This document shows positions 1 to 36,682 of a DNA stretch of 64,000 nucleotides, one piece after another. The stretch is taken from assembly GCF_055900595.2 (NCBI RefSeq), contig NZ_CM148325.1, one strand, 5' to 3'. The first letter of the stretch is position 1. Every line of letters starts with the position of its first letter. A model generated the notes under the pieces. The model was given only the letters and a program-made list of their open reading frames with translations. It was not told the origin of the DNA and ran no database searches. Both the position numbers and the translations under genes were made by a program.

Positions 1-1
1 T

Positions 2-670
2 GCGGAAGTCTCGGATATAAAAAAACACCCGCGACTTGAGGACGTCAATAAGGGGTGGCTGCAGGATATCAGGGACCAGGCCCCGCAACGCGTCATGAAA
101 GACGTGATGCTGACTGCGCGCAATATGGACAATTCGGTGGCATACACAGGCAGATACGCCAATCCCGATGCACTGGTCCAGGATGCACGCTCATCCCTGC
201 TTGATGAATGGCACAAGGACGCAGACGACCTCGTTGTCATCATGGGGCGAAACCTCTTTAACTCCCTGCGCCTGCCGGTCCTGAACAGTATCAGCATGCA
301 GAATGCGAATGCCGAACTGCTTGCCGGACAGCTCATTGTGTCAACGCGGACCATTGGCGGCCTTGATGTGTACCTTGCGCCATTTTTCCCGGCTCAGTCA
401 ATGCTCATCACCTCATTCAGCAACCTGTCGGTTTACTGGCAGAAGGGGTCCATGCGTCGTCTCATGAAGGATGAGCCCGAATACAACCGTATCGCCATCT
501 ATCAGTCCGTTAACGACTGCTATGTGGTTGAGGACCATGGTAAGTGCGCACTGATTGAGAATATCAGCTTTGCCACATATGACCATGACGCGCCGGACTG
601 GTACCGGGAGGGCATAAAAGCACTGTCAGCGCAGGCTGAAGACAAGGATGCAGGGGAAGAGGAGGATTAA
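2..670 (+). CDS. Phage major capsid protein, C-terminal portion (P2 gpN-like); 5' end lies outside the window
   Basis: Reading frame is open from position 2; sits immediately upstream of a gpM-like terminase subunit as in the P2 N-M-L order; acidic C-terminal tail. Confidence 0.55.
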   Translation, partial: AEVSDIKKHPRLEDVNKGWLQDIRDQAPQRVMKDVMLTARNMDNSVAYTGRYANPDALVQDARSSLLDEWHKDADDLVVIMGRNLFNSLRLPVLNSISMQNANAELLAGQLIVSTRTIGGLDVYLAPFFPAQSMLITSFSNLSVYWQKGSMRRLMKDEPEYNRIAIYQSVNDCYVVEDHGKCALIENISFATYDHDAPDWYREGIKALSAQAEDKDAGEEED

Positions 671-16285: not shown

Positions 16286-17377
16286 ATGAAAGAGCTGTCA
16301 GTTACCGTTCCGTCACCGGATATCGACATCACCATCAACAACAACACACTGGCAAACCTCACAGAGCGACTCATGACGCTGACCCTGACGGATAACCGGG
16401 CCTTTGAGGCAGACCGCGTCACCCTCACCCTTGACGATACGGACGGGCAGTTACAGTTGCCACCACGTGGCGCACGCCTGAGAGTGATGATTGGCTGGCG
16501 AGGAGAATCACTGGTTAACAAGGGCACCTACGTCGTTGATGAGGTTGCGTGGGAAGGACCTCCAGATAAACTGATCATCACCGCCAGCAGCGCAGATTTT
16601 CGGGAAGAGTTCAACGTGAGGCGGGAGGTATCCTGGCACGACGTGACCGTAAAACAGGTTGTGTCAGCCATCGCTCACCGCTACGGCCTGAAGACACAGA
16701 TAAGCGAAATCCTCATGGATATCGAAATTGACCACGCTGACCAGACCGAAGAGAGCGATATATCCTTCCTGACCCGCATGGCTGAAATGCTGGGTGCGAT
16801 TGCCACCGTAAAAAACGGCAGCCTGTTATTCATTCTGCCGGGTGGCGGAACCGGGCCGGACGGAAGAGCCCTGCCTTCGTTCGCCATTACCCGCAGCAGC
16901 GGCGACAGTCACCGCTTTCGCATTGCTGACCGTGATGCGTATACGGGGGTCCGGGCGCACTGGCTCGATCTGAAGTTCGGGCAAAAGAAAAAAGTGAACG
17001 TGAAGCGACGCAGGGAAGCCGGGAAACAGAAACAGGAGAAGAGCAGCAGCCGGGAGGGTGATTACATGGAAGGCGCGGAAGGGAACGTCTACGTTCTGCG
17101 CAGGACTTACCAGAATGAAGAAACCGCACGACGTGCAGCTGCGGCAAAGTGGCAGGAGTTACAGCGGGGAGCAGCGGCATTCTCCATCACTCTGGCACGG
17201 GGTCGTGCCGACCTGTATCCCGAAATGCACGGCAGGGTAACAGGTTTTAAAAGCGAGGTGGACAATCAGGACTGGATTATTGCCAGGGTGGAGCACATCA
17301 TAGATGAAAGCGGCTTCACCACACAACTGGAGCTGGAAGCGAAAATCCCCGAATGGATAGCAGATTCAGGCGGATAA
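16286..17377 (+). CDS. Tail protein D (late control gene D family), P2 gpD-like
   Basis: ATG at 16286 preceded by aggagag; 363 aa with gpD-type motifs (LTLTDNR.FEAD, FSITLARGRADLYPE). Confidence 0.7.
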   Translation: MKELSVTVPSPDIDITINNNTLANLTERLMTLTLTDNRAFEADRVTLTLDDTDGQLQLPPRGARLRVMIGWRGESLVNKGTYVVDEVAWEGPPDKLIITASSADFREEFNVRREVSWHDVTVKQVVSAIAHRYGLKTQISEILMDIEIDHADQTEESDISFLTRMAEMLGAIATVKNGSLLFILPGGGTGPDGRALPSFAITRSSGDSHRFRIADRDAYTGVRAHWLDLKFGQKKKVNVKRRREAGKQKQEKSSSREGDYMEGAEGNVYVLRRTYQNEETARRAAAAKWQELQRGAAAFSITLARGRADLYPEMHGRVTGFKSEVDNQDWIIARVEHIIDESGFTTQLELEAKIPEWIADSGG

Positions 17378-17420
17378 AATTAAAATGAGCCATCTCCACT
17401 CAGCCAGATAAGGAGAAGCC

Positions 17421-17672
17421 ATGTTCCGTTGTCCCCTATGCGGTGCATCCGCACGTATCCGCACCAGTCGCAATGAAAATGATTCAGGCACAGTTCGCCT
17501 GAAGTACTACCAGTGCAATAACCTCGAATGCGGGATCGGCTTTACCACACTGGAGGGTTTTAACAAATTCACATCAAAACGCGCCCCGTCGCCGCAGGGT
17601 ACAGAGCGGATACCGTGGGAAGATTTTCCGGGATCTCACAGGGGGAATACTCAGATTAATCTTGATATTTAA
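17421..17672 (+). CDS. ogr: Ogr/Delta-family zinc-finger late transcription activator
   Basis: 83 aa; N-terminus MFRCPLCGASARIRTSR...YYQCNNLEC carries the four-Cys Ogr signature; last gene of the P2-type late region. Confidence 0.7.
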   Translation: MFRCPLCGASARIRTSRNENDSGTVRLKYYQCNNLECGIGFTTLEGFNKFTSKRAPSPQGTERIPWEDFPGSHRGNTQINLDI

Positions 17673-17790
17673 GAACAATAATCAGGTTGAGAGGACATCA
17701 TAAGGCAAGTAGATTAACGGCAGATACTTTCCCGCAACCACGGGCAAGTATTTAATTATCCATGATGAAATATGACCTAAATTGTTTTTT

Positions 17791-17816
17791 GCCCGCCGGA
17801 AAGCGGGCATTTTTTT
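17791..17816 (+). terminator. Intrinsic terminator (GC hairpin plus T7), first of a recurring family in the array
   Basis: gcccgccggaaagcgggc then attttttt; T-run only on the plus-strand side. Confidence 0.55.
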
Positions 17817-18030
17817 ATTCTTTTGTGGTTATGGGGTCATCAGGAACCACGTGCAGATTATATTTTTGTTTTTTTGGCGTTCCTCCGGCAGCAACGAGTT
17901 CATCAATAAGACACTGACACGCCTGAACATCCCGGGCATGTCTTAGTTTCACCTTTATTGATTTAACCTTATCCTCACCGGAGGAGAAATGCAGTTCAAT
18001 CTCAATATCGTTTCTTCGGAACAATCTCAT
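17815..18030 (-). CDS. Hypothetical small protein (71 aa) encoded in the 450-bp repeat unit; only this copy is full length
   Basis: MRLFRRNDIEIELHFSSGEDKVKS...; copy at about 19.2 kb differs by two synonymous and one non-synonymous change in the first 7 codons and is truncated to about 35 codons; third copy degenerate. Confidence 0.35.
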   Translation of the reverse strand: MRLFRRNDIEIELHFSSGEDKVKSIKVKLRHARDVQACQCLIDELVAAGGTPKKQKYNLHVVPDDPITTKE

Positions 18031-18254
18031 ACGCCCCCTGAATATATCAGAAATACTAGTATCGAAAAATGAGAAAACAGTTAGACAGGAGAAACATATT
18101 AACACAAATCATTTATACCTATAGATGAAATTATAATTTCATTCATGAATATGATAGATAACTATATTGTGAACAAAATGAAAAATGGCTAAATTAAAAA
18201 TGGGCATGGAGGAATGCCCGGTTATCAATATAATGTGACGTAGATCATTGTTTT

Positions 18255-18281
18255 GCCCGCCGGAGAGCGGGCATTTTTTTT
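18255..18281 (+). terminator. Intrinsic terminator (repeat family)
   Basis: gcccgccggagagcgggc followed by a T8 run. Confidence 0.5.
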
Positions 18282-18465
18282 GCGCCTGCCATCGAGGCGC
18301 CTTCCCTGGCGCACACAAAGCAGCCCTGATTTTCCATGAAAACTTCAGGGTTGAGCTGCGGGCACAAAGTGAGTAGATTAGCTACGGGTACCTCCCCCTG
18401 ACAACAGGAAGGGTGTCCATTATCCATGATATACAAACGAAAAGTCTTGTTTTTTGCCCGCCGAA

Positions 18466-18491
18466 GCGCGGGCATTTTTTTATGCATCAGA
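18466..18491 (+). terminator. Intrinsic terminator (repeat family), immediately upstream of the hok-like locus
   Basis: gcccgccgaagcgcgggc followed by a T7 run. Confidence 0.5.
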
Positions 18492-18607
18492 CAAGATACA
18501 GCCCACCCCAACTGACACCTGAAATATTGCCGCAACAAAAAGAAACAGTTAAATTACGCGCGGGTGCCTTTCGGCTGATGGCCGGAGGGAAAACCTGAAG
18601 GCCGGAT

Positions 18608-18841
18608 GTGGAAAGGCCCCGGAAAACATTTCTGTTTAACCGAGGCCCTAACCGCATTACCTTGACAAGTGAAAGGTTAGCGCCTCTCCGGAAAAGGAGC
18701 AAGTGCTATGTCGCAAAAATCGCTTACGGCCATCACGTTCTGCGTGACGGCAATCCTCATCATCTGGATATTGCACGGTTCGCTGTGCGAAATACGGATG
18801 AGCTTCTGGGGAGCGGAGTTTGCGGCGTTCTTACAATGTAA
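18608..18841 (+). CDS. mok-like overlapping reading frame of the hok-like locus
   Basis: 77-codon frame starting at GTG 100 nt upstream of the hok-like ATG and covering it in another frame, as in hok/mok/sok modules. Confidence 0.4.
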   Translation: MERPRKTFLFNRGPNRITLTSERLAPLRKRSKCYVAKIAYGHHVLRDGNPHHLDIARFAVRNTDELLGSGVCGVLTM

Positions 18842-18848
18842 GAAGTAA
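18708..18848 (+). CDS. Hok-family type I toxin (46 aa), apparently intact
   Basis: ATG at 18708 preceded by aaggag with 8-nt spacing; MSQKSLTAITFCVTAILIIWILHGSLCEIRMSFWGAEFAAFLQCKK has a single TM helix, the Hok SLCEIR motif and the E(F/V)AAF motif; too short for the ORF track. Confidence 0.6.
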   Translation: MSQKSLTAITFCVTAILIIWILHGSLCEIRMSFWGAEFAAFLQCKK

Positions 18849-18947
18849 GGAAACCGCGACGGGGGAGCAATCCCCCGTCAATCGGTTGCCAGGGTAAGGT
18901 CGATAAGGCACCCTATCTCACAGACATGAACAACAAACCCGCAGCAT

Positions 18948-18979
18948 AAAAACTGCGGGTTTTCTTTTTGGTGTCCTCA
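18948..18979 (+). terminator. Intrinsic terminator downstream of the hok-like gene
   Basis: cccgcag cataaaaa ctgcggg followed by tttctttttgg. Confidence 0.5.
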
Positions 18980-20612
18980 CCGACTTGAAACAGTGATCAG
19001 ACTATAAGACAAAGCCCGCAATGTTGCGGGCTTACTCTACCTCTCGAAAATGTGGTCACTGCGTGGACATACGCTGATACAAATCCTTTATATCAATAAA
19101 TTAAATCTTTGTTTTTTTCATCAACAATGATTTAACCTTATCCTCACCGGAGGAGAAATGCAGTTCAATCTCAATATCGTTTCTGTGGAACAGCCTCATA
19201 AGACAACCTCCTGAATTCATCAGAAACACAGTCAACTGAAAACCAGAAAGCAGACAAACAGTGGACACACATTAATACAAATCATTTATACCTATAGATG
19301 AAATTGCAGTTTCATCTATAACATGACAGGTAACAATATTGTGAAAAAACTCAAAACTCGTTAGATTAAAGACGGACAGAGCAATGCTACTTTATCAATA
19401 ACATGTAACCTGTACTTCCTTATTTTGCCCGCCGAAGCACGGGCATTTTTTTTGCGCCTGCCATCGAGGCGCCTTCCCTGGCGCACACAAAGCAGCCCTG
19501 ATTTTCCATGAAAACTTCAGGGTTGAGCCAAAAGCACAAAGACAGTAGATTAACCACGGGTGCCTTCCACCTGACAACAGGAAGGGTGTCCAGTATCAAT
19601 GACAGACAACTCACATTGCTGTTTTGCCCGCCGGAAAGCGGGCATTTTTTTATTCTTTTGTGGTTATTGGGTCATCAGGAACAACATGCAGATTATGCTT
19701 TGATTTTTTTGGTGTTATTACAGCAGCAACGAGTTTATTAATAAGACACTGACATGCCTGAACATCCCTGACATATCATAATTTCACTTTATTTTTTTAG
19801 CTTGTCCTTTCTGGAGCAGAAATATCTCAACATCGTTTCTGTGGAACAACCTCATTTGCCCCTGAATGTATCATAAATATCAGCATCGGAAAACCAACAG
19901 CAATACAGAAGAAACATGTTAATGCAAATCACTTATACCTATAGATGAAATTACAGTTTTGTTCATAAATATGATAAGTAACTATATTGTGAATAAAATG
20001 AAAACTAGCTAAATTAAACGTGGGCATGGTGGAATGCCTCGTAATCAATAATACATGATCCGTACTTCCTTGTTTTGCCCGCCGGAAAGCGGGCATTTTT
20101 TTGGCGGTTACCATCGCCTCACCTTCCTGGTTCACATGAAGCAACCCTGATTTTCCATGAAAACTTCAGGGTTGAGACAAAAGCACAAAGACAGTAGATT
20201 AACCACGGGTACCTTCCACCTGACAACAGGAAGGCTGTCCAGTATCAATGACAGACAACTCACATTGCTGTTTTGCCCGCCGGAAAGCGGGCTTTTTTTG
20301 GCAGTTATCATAGCCGCACCTTCCTGGCACATATGAAGCAACCCTGATTTTCCATGAAAACTTCAGGGTTGAGACAAAAGCACAAAAACAGTAGATTAAC
20401 CACGGGTGCCTGCCACCTGACAACAGGAAGGGGTGTCCATTATCCATGATATACAAACGAAAAGTCTTGTCTTTTGCCCGCCAAAGCGCGGGCATTTTTT
20501 TATGCATCAGACAAGATACAGCCCACCCCAACTAACACCTGAAATATTGCCGCAACAAAAAGAAACGGGTGCCTTTCGGCTGATGGCCGGAGGGAAAACC
20601 TGAAGACCGGAT

Positions 20613-20795
20613 GTGGAAAGGCCCCGGAAAACATCTGTGTTTAACCGAGGCCTGACCCTTCCTACCGTGACAAGTGGAAGGTTAGCGCCTCTTTGTAAAA
20701 GGAGCAAGCGCTATACCGCAAAAAACGATTATTGTTGGCATTTTATGCCTGACAATAACCCTGGTCATCTGGATGGTCCACGATTCGTTATGTGA
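20613..20795 (+). CDS. mok-like frame of the second (decayed) hok-like locus
   Basis: 60-codon frame from GTG, homologous to 18608..18841. Confidence 0.3.
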   Translation: MERPRKTSVFNRGLTLPTVTSGRLAPLCKRSKRYTAKNDYCWHFMPDNNPGHLDGPRFVM

Positions 20796-20853
20796 ATTCA
20801 GCTTTGATATCTGAGGAGCGCGTTTTGCGGCGTTCTTGCAGTGTAAACCGTAA
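20713..20853 (+). pseudogene. Decayed hok-like toxin gene (start codon lost, in-frame nonsense codon)
   Basis: Alignment to copy 1 by eye: ATG is ATA at 20713-20715 and TGG is TGA at 20812-20814; remaining frame IPQKTIIVGILCLTITLVIWMVHDSLCEFSFDI* still shows the Hok core. Confidence 0.5.
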
Positions 20854-21003
20854 GAAACCGCAGCGGGGGAGAAATTCCCCGCTATCCGGTTGTTGGGGTG
20901 GGCCGATATGGCGCCCTTTCCCTGTAGAGACAAAACAAAAAACCAGATTTGCCCGCCATTGAGAGGGCTTTTTTGTCACCCTCACCAGTGAGGGCATCAT
21001 CAT

Positions 21004-21231
21004 TCAGAGGCGCGTAAGCCACCCGGCGTTAACATCCTGCCTGTCAACCCTGGCCGCAGAGTCTGAACGGCAGGTACCGGAAGGAGTACCAAAAACATCC
21101 CTGACAAGTTCCGCCACCTTCCCGATATCATCAGGTGTCACATTCCTCACCTCGGCCGTGATCCGTGGCGTACCATCATCGTTAACAAGAGTGGCTTTAA
21201 AGCTGGTGCGAAGGGAAAACAACATCAACAT
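21004..21231 (-). CDS. Hypothetical small protein (75 aa) between the repeat array and serS
   Basis: ORF only; not recognised; absent from my recollection of the K-12 serS-dmsA spacer. Confidence 0.25.
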   Translation of the reverse strand: MLMLFSLRTSFKATLVNDDGTPRITAEVRNVTPDDIGKVAELVRDVFGTPSGTCRSDSAARVDRQDVNAGWLTRL

Positions 21232-21386
21232 CCCCTCCCTTTGGTTCGTTGCACTGACGGCACGACACCATCAGGAAAAAGAAAAGCCCACAACGTCAGT
21301 ATTGTGGACTTTTTTCTTCAAAGATGGACATTATCTGGACACATGAAAATAAAATCCATTTATTTTCATATAGTTAAGTACCATGC

Positions 21387-21410
21387 AAAAGCGCCCGCAG
21401 GCGCTTTTTA
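21387..21410 (-). terminator. serS terminator (bidirectional-looking hairpin)
   Basis: aaaagcgcc cgca ggcgctttt immediately 3' of the serS stop. Confidence 0.55.
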
Positions 21411-21429
21411 GATTCAGAAAAATTGGGTA

Positions 21430-22743
<1,314 letters not shown>

Positions 22744-36002: not shown

Positions 36003-36250
36003 TTGTTTTACCGCCTGATGGGCGAAGAGAAAGAACGAGTAAAAGGTCGGTTTAACCGGCCTTTTTATTTTGTACGAAGAACGCTGGAAGTATAAGTACA
36101 TAACTTGTCTCGATGTAGATATACTGCACAACTTGTTTACAGTATGAGCAAACGAGAATTGTCAGTAAAATTCTTCTTGACCGTTTTACTCCAACTCCCT
36201 ATAGTAGCGCCCCGTTGCCCCCCCATGAGGTCAGGCAGCAAAACAATTTG

Positions 36251-36337
36251 GTGAGGTGTCCGAGTGGCTGAAGGAGCACGCCTGGAAAGTGTGTATACGG
36301 CAACGTATCGGGGGTTCGAATCCCCCCCTCACCGCCA
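36251..36337 (+). tRNA. serW: tRNA-Ser (GGA anticodon)
   Basis: ggtgaggtgtccgagtggctgaaggagcacgcctggaaagtgtgtatacggcaacgtatcgggggttcgaatccccccctcaccgcca: 7-bp acceptor stem, long variable arm, T-loop GGTTCGAATCC, encoded CCA. Confidence 0.9.
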
Positions 36338-36378: not shown

Positions 36379-36682
36379 CGCATTTTATCTGCCTGTACGG
36401 CAGTGAACGGTATAAAAATCGAGTTTTCCTTTCGGTTGGCTTTCTAAGCTGCCTGTACGGCAGTGAACTCAAATACTACACGTCTAGCCCGTTGTTAATA
36501 AAGCAAAACCATCTCATTTTCCTGCTGCCCCCCCTTTTTTATCCTTACCTTTCAGCTGCACTACTTATCAACAACTTACCATCATCATCAAAAAAAGGGT
36601 CTGAACCTCCTCCACCCCATAAATAAAAAGTCCGTAACCTCTTTCGAGATTACGGACTTCACCAACCTACCTAACAATTAGA

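What the first reader, a model, noticed from the sequence alone, without database searches (positions are those of the whole stretch)
17700..21000. Repeat array of terminator-capped units at the prophage/chromosome junction, sharing an agtagattaac motif with the prophage terminus
Immediately after ogr, where the P2 map places the attachment site, lies about 3.3 kb made almost entirely of repeated modules. About 190-bp units occur four times (about 18282-18482, 19452-19652, 20103-20300, 20301-20507) and about 450-bp units three times (17817-18250, about 19085-19440, 19653-20100). Each unit ends in the same hairpin plus T-run, which is terminator-like only on the plus strand. The motif agtagattaac occurs at 17708-17718 within the first 50 bp after ogr and recurs inside the 190-bp units. 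Copies diverge by point mutations and indels. Possible explanations are a tandem small-RNA gene array, a nest of decayed type I toxin modules, or remnants of repeated integration at a preferred att site. In my recollection the K-12 serS-dmsA spacer is a few hundred bp with none of this.
Basis: partly seen in the sequence, partly recalled or inferred. Interest (0 to 1): 0.65.

Follow-up and report, generated by a model that had tools for sequence, protein, structure and literature searches.

The report
Prophage cargo array of sRNA-like cassettes
The repeats are real, but they lie inside a P2-like prophage as accessory cargo (small promoter-to-terminator RNA-like cassettes plus hok toxin modules) rather than at its attachment site, and they form an undescribed but fairly ordinary kind of phage "moron" region.

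Summary
The repeat array is real. There are four ~200-bp U units plus a fifth partial copy just after ogr, three ~450-bp B units, two hok/sok modules, and eight copies of one terminator where 0 are expected by chance.

It is not at the prophage/chromosome junction. Comparison with an empty serS-dmsA site puts the att core (AAAGCGCCCGCAGG, inside the serS terminator) at 21388-21401, and the same core recurs beside int. The array is therefore cargo between ogr and attP of a P2-like prophage distantly related to P88.

Related prophages carry shorter versions next to copA. At serS itself there is an allele lacking 1,172 bp.

The agtagattaac motif is the -10 box and flank of a promoter-like element (TTGAGN-17-TAGATT). 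This element is homologous to the hok promoter and mRNA 5' end.

Each U and B unit reads as an autonomous promoter, an ~80-100-nt RNA, and an intrinsic terminator. The RNA folds as a 5' stem-loop, an AU-rich conserved box, and a U-flanked GC hairpin.

One hok module is intact and one is dead. A fossil P88-type attP at 19000-19126 marks a past phage-into-phage integration.

No transcription data exist, and the family matches no Rfam model. It occurs in 30 of 5,426 E. coli genomes. Interest is moderate to low.

The parts
17421..17672 (+). ogr (late-gene activator), the last conserved phage gene before the cargo region
   Evidence: ORF. RefSeq annotates it as an ogr/Delta-like zinc finger. phrog_603 match.
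17687..17816 (+). U' cassette. Predicted ~95-nt RNA at ~17722-17816 ending in a terminator at 17790-17816.
   Evidence: Promoter and terminator scans. Alignment to the U units. Fold gives SL1, a single-stranded stretch and a terminator. Occupies the slot that hok holds in P88-like phages.
17815..18030 (-). ORF71, a small-protein gene inside unit B1 and the only intact copy
   Evidence: RefSeq CDS WP_001236182.1. 47% identical homologue in another P88-like phage, L177. 16 relatives among 1.84 billion representatives. phrog_14142, function unknown.
17817..18281 (+). Unit B1. Holds ORF71 on the minus strand and a divergent promoter-like TTGTGA-17-TAAATT at 18167-18195. Predicted ~80-nt RNA at ~18202-18281 with a terminator at 18254-18281.
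   Evidence: Alignment of B1, B2 and B3. Fold. Terminator. The hexamers match only 8/12, so the scan did not flag them; they were read from the sequence.
18282..18482 (+). Unit U1. Upstream palindrome, promoter-like TTGAGC-17-TAGATT at 18351-18379, predicted RNA at ~18386-18481.
18483..18975 (+). hok/sok-type type I toxin-antitoxin module 1, intact. Promoter TTGCCG-17-TAAATT, mRNA 5' end at ~18562, hok ORF at 18708-18848, mok-like ORF at 18608-18841, terminator at 18935-18962.
   Evidence: Rfam sok 46.2 bits, below the gathering score of 59. phrog_251 MokW-like, E 8.5e-22. RefSeq Hok/Gef annotation. Closely similar to the hok module of phage Chuche over most of its length (alignment).
19000..19126 (+). 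Fossil attP (P arm plus part of the core) of a P88-type phage that targets the flk site, joined to B2 at GATTTAACC
   Evidence: Closely matches Chuche attP, L004 4490-4615. 86-98% identical to the attP region of 16 P88-like contigs. The natural attB lies upstream of flk.
19126..19453 (+). Unit B2. The ORF71 copy is truncated and the SL1 of its RNA has decayed. Promoter-like TTGTGA-17-TAGATT at 19338-19366, terminator at 19426-19453.
19453..19652 (+). Unit U2. Promoter-like element at 19523-19551, predicted RNA at ~19558-19651.
   Evidence: z-score -2.83 on the + strand against -1.86 on the - strand.
19652..20102 (+). Unit B3. The ORF71 copy is disrupted. Promoter-like TTGTGA-17-TAAATT at 19987-20015, predicted RNA at ~20022-20102.
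20103..20300 (+). Unit U3. Promoter-like element at 20172-20200, predicted RNA at ~20207-20299.
20301..20502 (+). Unit U4. Promoter-like element at 20369-20397, predicted RNA at ~20404-20501.
20503..20947 (+). hok/sok-type module 2, a pseudogene. The -10 box is deleted, the start codon is ATG>ATA, there is an in-frame stop, and the fbi element is mutated.
   Evidence: Alignment. Translation. Rfam sok 42.8 bits.
20948..20975 (+). Ninth, diverged copy of the cassette terminator. Homologous to the terminator of the last U unit in the copA-integrated relative.
   Evidence: family D2. Comparison with L005 6407-6460.
21004..21231 (-). ORF75, a conserved cargo ORF of unknown function beside the P arm
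   Evidence: ORF. A homologous CDS sits in the same position in the copA-integrated phage. No Pfam, PHROG, NCBIfam or PADLOC match.
21320..21387 (+). P arm of the resident attR, with two direct TGGACA repeats (21324-21330, 21336-21342)
   Evidence: Sequence. The same repeats occur at the int end of attL, in the copA variant and in Chuche attP. That they are Int arm-type sites is inferred from knowledge of P2.
21388..21401 (+). attR core AAAGCGCCCGCAGG, half of the serS terminator and the true prophage/chromosome junction
   Evidence: The same 14-mer lies beside int at attL in two lysogens.

Best explanation
The 17.7-21.0 kb region is the accessory (moron) cargo slot between ogr and attP of a ~37-kb P2-like prophage, distantly related to P88/Xuanwuvirus, that sits in the serS terminator.

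Contents. The slot is built from small autonomous transcription units, all facing the same way and all closed by one shared intrinsic terminator. (i) Eight sRNA-like cassettes fall into two related families: U (U', U1-U4) and B (the 3' part of B1-B3). Each has a TTGNNN-17-TA(G/A)ATT promoter-like element and a predicted 80-100-nt RNA. The RNA has a 5' stem-loop, an AU-rich single-stranded stretch with a conserved UAUC(A/C)AU box, a U-rich tract, a GC hairpin and a U7-8 tail. This resembles the layout of Hfq-dependent sRNAs. (ii) There are two hok/sok type I toxin-antitoxin modules, one intact and one dead. (iii) There is a small-protein gene (ORF71) with two decayed copies. (iv) There is a fossil attP.

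The motif. That promoter and the first ~10 transcribed bases are homologous to the hok promoter and mRNA 5' end.

How the array grew. Growth was by recombination among the ~30-bp near-identical terminators and other repeats, plus one event in which a flk-targeting P88-type phage carrying B-U-hok cargo recombined through its attP with a secondary site (GATTTAACC) inside a B unit. Homologous deletion of the duplicated phage body followed, leaving a 1,172-bp insertion.

Shown versus inferred. Shown: the anatomy, the att boundaries, mobility with the phage, the pre-insertion allele, and hok status. Inferred: that the cassettes are transcribed from the proposed starts and act as trans-acting, probably Hfq-binding, regulatory RNAs in the lysogen.
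For: Boundaries. The empty site reads ...aaaaaaagcgcccgcaggcgcttttt.... Ordinary E. coli matches the window only from 21387 onward. The core 14-mer occurs once in the window, at 21388-21401, and once beside int in two lysogens.

Cargo status. A related phage integrated at copA carries ogr-U'-B-U-U-ORF-P arm. In about 75 of 80 related phage contigs, a hok module with promoter TTGCCG-17-TAGATT follows ogr directly, in the position U' holds here.

Pre-insertion allele. Metagenome contig L220 is 99.7-99.9% identical to the window on both sides but lacks window ~17959-19127.

Fossil attP..

Cassette anatomy. Promoter-like and + strand-only terminator calls: 16 terminator-like sites against 3.9 expected. 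The shared terminator occurs 8 times against 0 expected. All copies except B2 fold as SL1 plus a single-stranded stretch plus a terminator.

Block-wise conservation between U' and the U units. -35 box 7/7, -10 box 9/9, conserved box 9-11/11 and terminator 26-30/30. By contrast the spacer is 6-8/16, SL1 19-21/40 and the pre-terminator stretch 7-11/22.

Pairing-preserving changes. SL1 and terminator substitutions are all of the G.U<->A-U or G-C->G.U kind, which keep pairing only on the + strand RNA. The inner stem is CCUG/CAGG in U and CCCG/CGGG in U'.

Homology to hok. U matches the hok promoter and 5' end over ~43 nt, scoring 28 against a maximum of 27 in 200 shuffles.

hok status..
Against: There are no expression data.

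The promoter-like hexamers are modest: 8-9 of 12 matches, and B1-B3, U1 and U2 fall below the scan threshold.

No double compensatory change occurs within the U family (0 of 19 pairs), because all known copies are close relatives. The family is seen in only 30 of 5,426 E. coli genomes and a handful of contigs.

No Rfam family reaches its gathering score in the array.

No target was found. Complementarity to the window, to phage early genes and to ORF71 mRNA is at chance level.

Some copies are visibly decaying: the SL1 of B2, hok2, and two ORF71 copies. Part of the array is therefore debris.

The 5' ~90 bp of each U unit, including a conserved 27-bp palindrome next to the -35 box, is unexplained.
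Confidence: 0.7

Rival explanations
1. The array is a stack of att-site remnants. Successive P2-like phages integrated at a preferred site after ogr/serS, each leaving a terminator-capped stub that carries the agtagattaac core.
For: One genuine fossil attP lies inside the array at 19000-19126. The sequence AGATTTAACGG next to the attL core loosely resembles the motif. U units contain a TGGACAC heptamer on the minus strand that resembles the putative Int arm repeats.
Against: The core defined by the empty site is AAAGCGCCCGCAGG. It is absent from the array, with a single copy in the window at 21388. The motif lies 17 bp downstream of a conserved TTGAG, in promoter geometry, and is homologous to the hok -10 box. 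The array moves with the phage to copA. The units lack P-arm features, apart from the one fossil.
Confidence: 0.07
2. All units, U and B included, are decayed type I toxin-antitoxin loci (hok/sok-like or another family) that have lost their toxin ORFs, so the whole region is a TA graveyard.
For: Two hok modules are present, one a clear pseudogene. The U promoter and first ~10 transcribed nucleotides are homologous to those of hok. Tandem repetition is typical of chromosomal type I TA loci such as LDR, QUAD/sib and zor-orz (general knowledge).
Against: Beyond ~43 nt, U and B show no similarity to hok on either strand. No conserved hydrophobic small ORF exists; the open frames run through the terminators and differ in length between copies. 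There is no Rfam hit to Sib, Ldr or other TA RNAs. Conservation is concentrated in the promoter hexamers, the box and the terminator, which is not the pattern of neutral decay.
Confidence: 0.12
3. The repeats are functionless debris, amplified and shuffled by unequal recombination at the shared terminator, and not maintained by selection.
For: Several elements are decaying: hok2, the SL1 of B2 and two ORF71 copies. Copy number differs between alleles and between related phages. The family is rare.
Against: U' and the U units are only ~50% identical across spacer and stem regions, yet 100% identical in both promoter hexamer blocks and 82-100% identical in the box. Stem substitutions preserve pairing on the + strand. 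U' is kept at the same position in every phage of the lineage seen.
Confidence: 0.15
4. The U units encode small proteins, for example the MKTSGL... frame that starts in the hairpin loop, or frames on the minus strand.
For: Open frames exist in every copy.
Against: No Shine-Dalgarno sequence is present. The frames end at different lengths (21, 31 and more than 48 aa) and run through the terminator hairpin. The substitutions between copies that were inspected by eye are non-synonymous.
Confidence: 0.03

Closest known systems
Phage morons: autonomous promoter-to-terminator accessory units in temperate phages, including prophage-encoded sRNAs such as DicF, IpeX and the EHEC prophage sRNAs AgvB/AsxR
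   Same: The units are independent transcription units inserted in a non-essential slot of a temperate phage. Each has its own promoter-like element and intrinsic terminator, faces one direction, and varies between related phages.
   Different: No sequence or structure match to any Rfam family; AgvB, RyhB and RseX hits score 18-26 bits against gathering scores of 50-56 and cover only the terminator. There are up to eight paralogous copies in tandem in one slot. Expression is unproven.
hok/sok (hok/mok/sok) type I toxin-antitoxin loci, as found directly after ogr in P88-like phages (MokW/HokW-like)
   Same: Two modules of the array are members or ex-members of this family. The U units share the promoter geometry, the -10 box and the transcript 5' end GGGUGCCUU.
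   Different: U and B units have no hok ORF, no sok target region and a different terminator. They are 80-100-nt RNAs rather than ~400-nt mRNAs.
Hfq-dependent enterobacterial sRNAs: a 5' seed or stem-loop, then a U-rich tract, GC hairpin and poly-U 'Hfq-binding module'
   Same: The predicted RNAs have a 5' stem-loop, an AU-rich single-stranded region, a UUUU tract just before a 6-7-bp GC hairpin and a U7-8 tail.
   Different: Hfq binding, targets and expression are untested. No homology to any core-genome sRNA; the U unit is found in only 30 of 5,426 E. coli genomes.
P2-family attachment sites: a core shared with a host terminator, plus arm-type Int repeats
   Same: The resident prophage uses a 14-bp core in the serS terminator with TGGACA direct repeats in both arms. 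A second, fossil attP of P88 type is embedded in the array.
   Different: The repeat units and the agtagattaac motif are not att sites.

Membership tests
P2-type att site (claimed for the agtagattaac motif and the array) | Core sequence identical at both prophage ends and present once in the empty site | tested here: not met
   The empty site and both junctions define AAAGCGCCCGCAGG at 21388-21401 and beside int. The motif is not part of it.
P2-type att site (claimed for the agtagattaac motif and the array) | The element stays with the chromosome site rather than with the phage | tested here: not met
   The array is found with ogr in a phage integrated at copA. It is absent from 5,396 of 5,426 E. 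coli genomes, which have the plain serS terminator.
hok/sok type I toxin-antitoxin (modules 18483-18975 and 20503-20947) | Hok-family toxin ORF of about 50 aa | tested here: met
   hok1: 46-aa ORF, phrog_251 E 8.5e-22, RefSeq Hok/Gef. NCBIfam HokA scores 30.7 bits, below its cutoff of 89. hok2: start codon lost and an in-frame stop, so it is a pseudogene.
hok/sok type I toxin-antitoxin (modules 18483-18975 and 20503-20947) | Conserved hok mRNA leader / sok region structure (Rfam RF01794) | tested here: inconclusive
   46.2 and 42.8 bits over the full model, E 2e-8 and 2e-7, but below the gathering score of 59.
hok/sok type I toxin-antitoxin (modules 18483-18975 and 20503-20947) | 5' tac / 3' fbi complementarity and an overlapping mok frame | tested here: met
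   hok1: GGGTGCCTT at 18562 and AAGGCACCC at ~18903. Overlapping 77-aa ORF at 18608-18841. hok2: fbi is mutated to ATGGCGCCC and the -10 box is deleted.
hok/sok type I toxin-antitoxin (claimed for U and B units) | Toxin ORF or a recognisable remnant; sok target region | tested here: not met
   Similarity to hok is limited to ~43 nt of promoter and 5' end. No conserved hydrophobic ORF. No Rfam TA-RNA hit.
Trans-acting (Hfq-type) sRNA gene | Own promoter and Rho-independent terminator bounding a 50-300-nt non-coding transcript | tested here: inconclusive
   Terminators are clear. Promoter-like hexamers are conserved 100% between diverged copies but match the consensus at only 8-9 of 12 positions. 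No transcript data.
Trans-acting (Hfq-type) sRNA gene | Conserved secondary structure supported by covariation | tested here: inconclusive
   A consensus SL1 plus terminator is found. Five one-sided pairing-preserving changes and 0 double changes occur within the U family. The stem sequence is replaced but the architecture kept in U'. Too few diverged sequences.
Trans-acting (Hfq-type) sRNA gene | Expression, Hfq binding, and mRNA targets | not testable with these tools
   No RNA-seq or CLIP data are available. Complementarity searches within the held sequence were at chance level.
Any described RNA family (Rfam 15) | Score at or above the family gathering threshold | tested here: not met
   No gathering-level hit falls in 17300-21500.

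The most novel reading that the evidence does not exclude
The U and B cassettes are a previously undescribed family of phage-borne regulatory sRNAs. On this reading they were born from a hok promoter/leader and amplified to eight paralogues with diversified 5' stem-loops around one conserved single-stranded box. They are shuffled between P2-like phages by recombination at a shared ~30-bp terminator, so the terminator doubles as a cassette joint. They would act in the lysogen on host or competitor-phage mRNAs.
Probability: 0.3. Interest if true: 0.5.

Novelty: new member of a known kind. Interest (0 to 1): 0.35.

Why it matters
If the cassettes are expressed, this would be an unusually dense, tandemly amplified set of prophage sRNA genes in the ogr-attP slot of P2-like phages. 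That slot holds a hok module in almost all of the P88-like relatives sampled here. It would also be a clear example of how cargo is assembled: by recombination at a shared terminator, and by one phage integrating into another phage's cargo. Natural 'before' and 'after' alleles are available for comparison. In practice the work corrects the prophage boundary (the att core lies in the serS terminator) and flags unannotated features in about 30 sequenced E. coli genomes, many of them from poultry. If the cassettes are not expressed, the region is ordinary decaying phage cargo.

Tried and rejected
(1) Rfam at gathering and at E<=5. Only sub-threshold sok hits on the hok modules were found, plus terminator-only noise from RyhB, AgvB, RseX and leader models.

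(2) A genome-contig scan with the terminator pattern was too generic: 120+ unrelated terminators. BLAST and nhmmer of those loci found nothing beyond the terminator.

(3) Viral and metagenome pattern scans returned only the same E. coli phage lineage, so there is no diverged material for covariation.

(4) The GenBank phage collection has no U or B homologue. The closest phages are ~77% identical, and only in tail genes.

(5) Target search. No complementarity above chance to the rest of the window, to the phage early region or to Chuche. A 13-nt match to int is same-sense, not antisense. RNAduplex of each RNA against the ORF71 mRNA was no better than shuffles, so B is not an obvious antitoxin RNA for ORF71.

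(6) Small-ORF reading of U was rejected.

(7) A U 5' end acting as a 'tac mimic' that pairs with hok fbi was considered. It was rejected because U1 and U3 carry GGGUACC, which keeps SL1 pairing but would mismatch fbi.

(8) IHF, DnaA-box and Ogr-operator readings of the conserved box and palindrome were considered. None gave a convincing consensus match.

(9) ORF71 and ORF75 have no Pfam, NCBIfam or PADLOC match.

(10) Literature searches for P2-like ogr sRNAs and for the literal sequences found nothing relevant.

Full report
OBSERVATION

The region was read directly and compared with itself. The repeats are real.

- Four ~200-bp units are present: U1 18282-18482, U2 19453-19652, U3 20103-20300 and U4 20301-20502. 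Over 174 nt they are 66-95% identical.
- Three ~450-bp units are present: B1 17817-18281, B2 ~19126-19453 and B3 19652-20103. Their mean column identity is 81%.
- Nine copies of one hairpin plus T-run are present. The pattern TTGCCCGCC-N6-CGGGC-N-TTTTT occurs 8 times in the 64-kb window, all on the + strand, against 0.00 expected in shuffles.
- The terminator scan calls these sites on the + strand only, and finds 16 terminator-like sites in the region against 3.9 expected.
- The motif agtagattaac is at 17708-17718 and recurs in U2-U4; U1 has one mismatch.

The 130 bp after ogr (17685-17816) is itself a partial fifth U copy, called U' here (family D6; alignment). Two ~450-bp hok/sok-type modules (18483-18975 and 20503-20947) belong to the repeat structure (families D3, D8 and D13). 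Many repeat spacings of ~1,172 bp reflect a single segmental insertion.

WHERE THE PROPHAGE ENDS

The window is E. coli. The local gene order is dmsA, then the prophage from int to D and ogr, then the array, then serS.

Ordinary E. coli genomes match the window only from position 21387 onward. An empty serS-dmsA spacer reads gacaaaaaaagcgcccgcaggcgctttttagattc.

In lysogens the int-side junction reads ...aaaaaaagcgcccgcagg|agatttaacgg.... The serS-side junction reads ...catgcaaaagcgcccgcagg|cgcttttt.... The 14-mer AAAGCGCCCGCAGG occurs once in the window, at 21388-21401. It also occurs once between int and dmsA in a full lysogen.

This is a classical att core inside the serS terminator. Direct TGGACA repeats lie in both arms (window 21324-21342; the int end). 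I take these to be Int arm-type sites by analogy with P2, from my own knowledge. The array therefore lies inside the att-flanked element, between ogr and the P arm, and not at the junction.

THE ARRAY IS PHAGE CARGO

The U unit occurs in only 30 of 5,426 complete E. coli genomes. Twenty-six carry the serS arrangement. Four carry a related prophage next to copA, whose right end reads ogr, U', B (with intact ORF71), U, U, a 73-aa ORF, the P arm, then copA.

In 80 contigs of phages whose Ogr is ~70% identical, about 75 have a hok module directly after ogr, with promoter TTGCCG-17-TAGATT. These phages are P88-like (Xuanwuvirus). Variable cargo follows the hok module and then attP; in phage Chuche the cargo is com/mod. 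The ogr-attP interval is thus a cargo slot in this phage group.

The closest GenBank phages are only ~77% identical to the resident prophage, and only in tail genes. The resident phage is therefore an unsequenced relative.

HISTORY OF THE ARRAY

Window 19000-19126 closely matches the attP of Chuche (hairpin, two TGGACA-type repeats, an IHF-like TATCAATAAATTA, and core TTTTTTTCATCAACAA(G/T)GATTT). It is 86-98% identical to the attP region of 16 P88-like contigs. Such phages integrate upstream of flk. In the window this fossil is fused to B2 exactly at GATTTAACC.

Metagenome contig L220 is 99.7% identical to window 17400-18021 and 99.9% identical to window 19128-21513, including serS. It lacks the ~1,172 bp in between. 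Contig L009 shows the same 'short' junction. Contig L219 carries the window allele at 100% identity.

The simplest history has two steps. First, a flk-type phage with cargo ...B-U-hok-attP recombined through its attP with the secondary site GATTTAACC in a B unit of the serS prophage. Second, homologous recombination between the two phage bodies removed the duplicate. This left B1(3' part)-U1-hok1-fossil attP as an insertion. The steps are inferred; the two alleles and the fossil are shown.

Terminator-mediated exchange also appears to have happened. The diverged ninth terminator (20948-20975) and the sequence that follows it are homologous to the terminator of the last U unit in the copA variant. 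This implies that the hok2 module was inserted between a U body and its original terminator.

WHAT THE UNITS ARE

The hok modules. hok1 has an intact 46-aa Hok (phrog_251, E 8.5e-22; RefSeq Hok/Gef). It has a mok-like overlapping frame, a tac/fbi pair (GGGTGCCTT / AAGGCACCC), and a full-length Rfam sok match of 46 bits, below the gathering score of 59. hok2 has lost its -10 box through a 15-bp deletion, its start codon (ATG>ATA), its reading frame, and its fbi element.

The U units. The promoter scan flags TTGAGA-17-TAGATT in U', U3 and U4. U1 and U2 have TTGAGC, giving 8 of 12 matches, which is below the scan threshold. U aligns with the hok promoter and mRNA start over ~43 nt (...ACAG-TAGATTAACCACGGGTGCCTT... 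against ...ACAGTTAAATTACGCGCGGGTGCCTT...), scoring 28 against a maximum of 27 in 200 shuffles. By homology the U transcript should start at GGGUGCC, about 7 nt after the -10 box.

The B units. Their 3' parts have TTGTGA-17-TAAATT (TAGATT in B2) with the same geometry. The match is only 8 of 12, read from the sequence.

The predicted RNAs. They are 80-103 nt long. All but B2 fold as a 5' stem-loop, an AU-rich single strand with a shared UAUC(A/C)AU(G/A)A box, a U tract, a GC hairpin and a U7-8 tail (joint alignment).

Conservation between U' and the U units is strikingly block-wise:

| Block | Identical positions |
|---|---|
| -35 box | 7/7 |
| -10 box | 9/9 |
| Conserved box | 9-11/11 |
| Terminator | 26-30/30 |
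| Promoter spacer | 6-8/16 |
| Stem-loop SL1 | 19-21/40 |
| Pre-terminator stretch | 7-11/22 |

Within the U family, five one-sided substitutions at three stem pairs keep pairing through G.U, which works only for + strand RNA; two further substitutions break a pair. No pair shows a double change. The inner stem is CCUG/CAGG in U and CCCG/CGGG in U'. U2 folds better than shuffles on the + strand (z -2.83) than on the - strand (z -1.86).

This adds up to a reasonable but unproven case for autonomous sRNA genes.

The B units also carry ORF71 on the minus strand. It is a real but rare small-protein family:

- A 47% identical homologue follows hok in another P88-like phage.
- A homologue sits directly after ogr in a different P2-like phage, L214.
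- A 128-aa long form sits beside attR in L215.
- There are 16 hits among 1.84 billion representative proteins.

Its function is unknown. Only the B1 copy is intact.

WHAT COULD NOT BE SHOWN

No expression data exist. No target was found in the sequences held. No relatives outside this E. coli phage lineage turned up, and nothing relevant appeared in the literature library. The 5' ~90 bp of each U unit is unexplained; it includes a conserved 27-bp palindrome, CCCTGATTTTCCATGAAAACTTCAGGG, abutting the -35 box. That palindrome might be an operator.

COMPARISON WITH KNOWN SYSTEMS AND VERDICT

The region works like a phage moron region that combines a plasmid-style addiction module (hok/sok) with prophage sRNA genes. 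The hok modules are members, or a dead member, of a known family. The U and B cassettes match no described RNA family and are best filed as candidate new members of the class of prophage-encoded sRNAs.

The att interpretation of the motif, and the placement of the array 'at the junction', are refuted. The 'repeated integration' idea survives only as one fossil attP.

Novelty is modest: a new member of a known kind. Interest is about 0.35, chiefly for the eight-fold tandem amplification, the apparent origin of the U promoter and 5' end from hok, and the well-documented phage-into-phage integration with both alleles available.

Noticed in passing
window 36441-36468 (-) and 36250-36334 (+): A single CRISPR-DR4 (type I-F-like) repeat scores 50 bits against a gathering score of 35, about 100 bp from a tRNA gene. 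From memory, E. coli keeps an orphan CRISPR4 remnant in the clpA-infA/serW region, so this is probably that known feature.
   Followed up: no
window 63888-63968 (-): Full-length naRNA4 (REP-derived nucleoid-associated RNA) match at 78 bits. Unrelated to the finding.
   Followed up: no
window 21004-21231 (-): ORF75, a conserved 75-aa ORF between the array and the P arm. It also sits in the same position in the copA-integrated relative (222-bp CDS WP_029490443.1). No match in any family library.
   Followed up: partly
window 17815-18030 (-); L214, L215, L211: The ORF71 family (MGLLNRNDIEIE...KVKLR...C..LIDK) recurs as cargo near ogr or attP in several P2-like phages and next to a Toprim primase in a P4-like context. 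Some members are 128-133 aa with an extra N-terminal domain. Function unknown.
   Followed up: partly
U units, e.g. window 19497-19523: A conserved 27-bp palindrome, CCCTGATTTTCCATGAAAACTTCAGGG, lies immediately upstream of the -35 box of every full U unit. In one copA-variant copy both inner arms gained a base (TTTTTC/GAAAAA), keeping the inner stem. It could be an operator; no binding protein has been identified.
   Followed up: partly
L009 ~1-100 (minus orientation): In this viral contig an IS10-like end, recognised from memory, interrupts the first full U unit after ...cacacaaagcac.
   Followed up: no
L002 (NZ_CP100530.1 3140196-3157688): In strain LH10-b-1 the same prophage has lost its replication, capsid and packaging genes and has a frameshifted tape-measure gene, yet keeps the array at 99.9% identity (compared with the full prophage).
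   Followed up: no
L217 (metagenome contig OERJ01002631.1): The left ~530 bp look like low-GC coding sequence from a different organism, joined to the phage sequence exactly at the start of the predicted B RNA. This is probably an assembly chimera. The right end joins the P88-type att core to a sequence present in nearly all E. coli genomes, which lies upstream of flk in the one P88-like lysogen examined.
   Followed up: partly
L065, L066, L085, L091 (L065, L066 and L085 are Rahnella genomes; L091 not checked): A conserved sRNA-like element (...GTGCTCACCCCCGAGGGAGTAC-ATAATGAATGTCATAAGAAATA-TTTTTGCCCGCC...GCGGGCATTTTTTT) shares the terminator and a similar overall layout with the cassettes here, but nothing else. 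Its identity was not checked.
   Followed up: no
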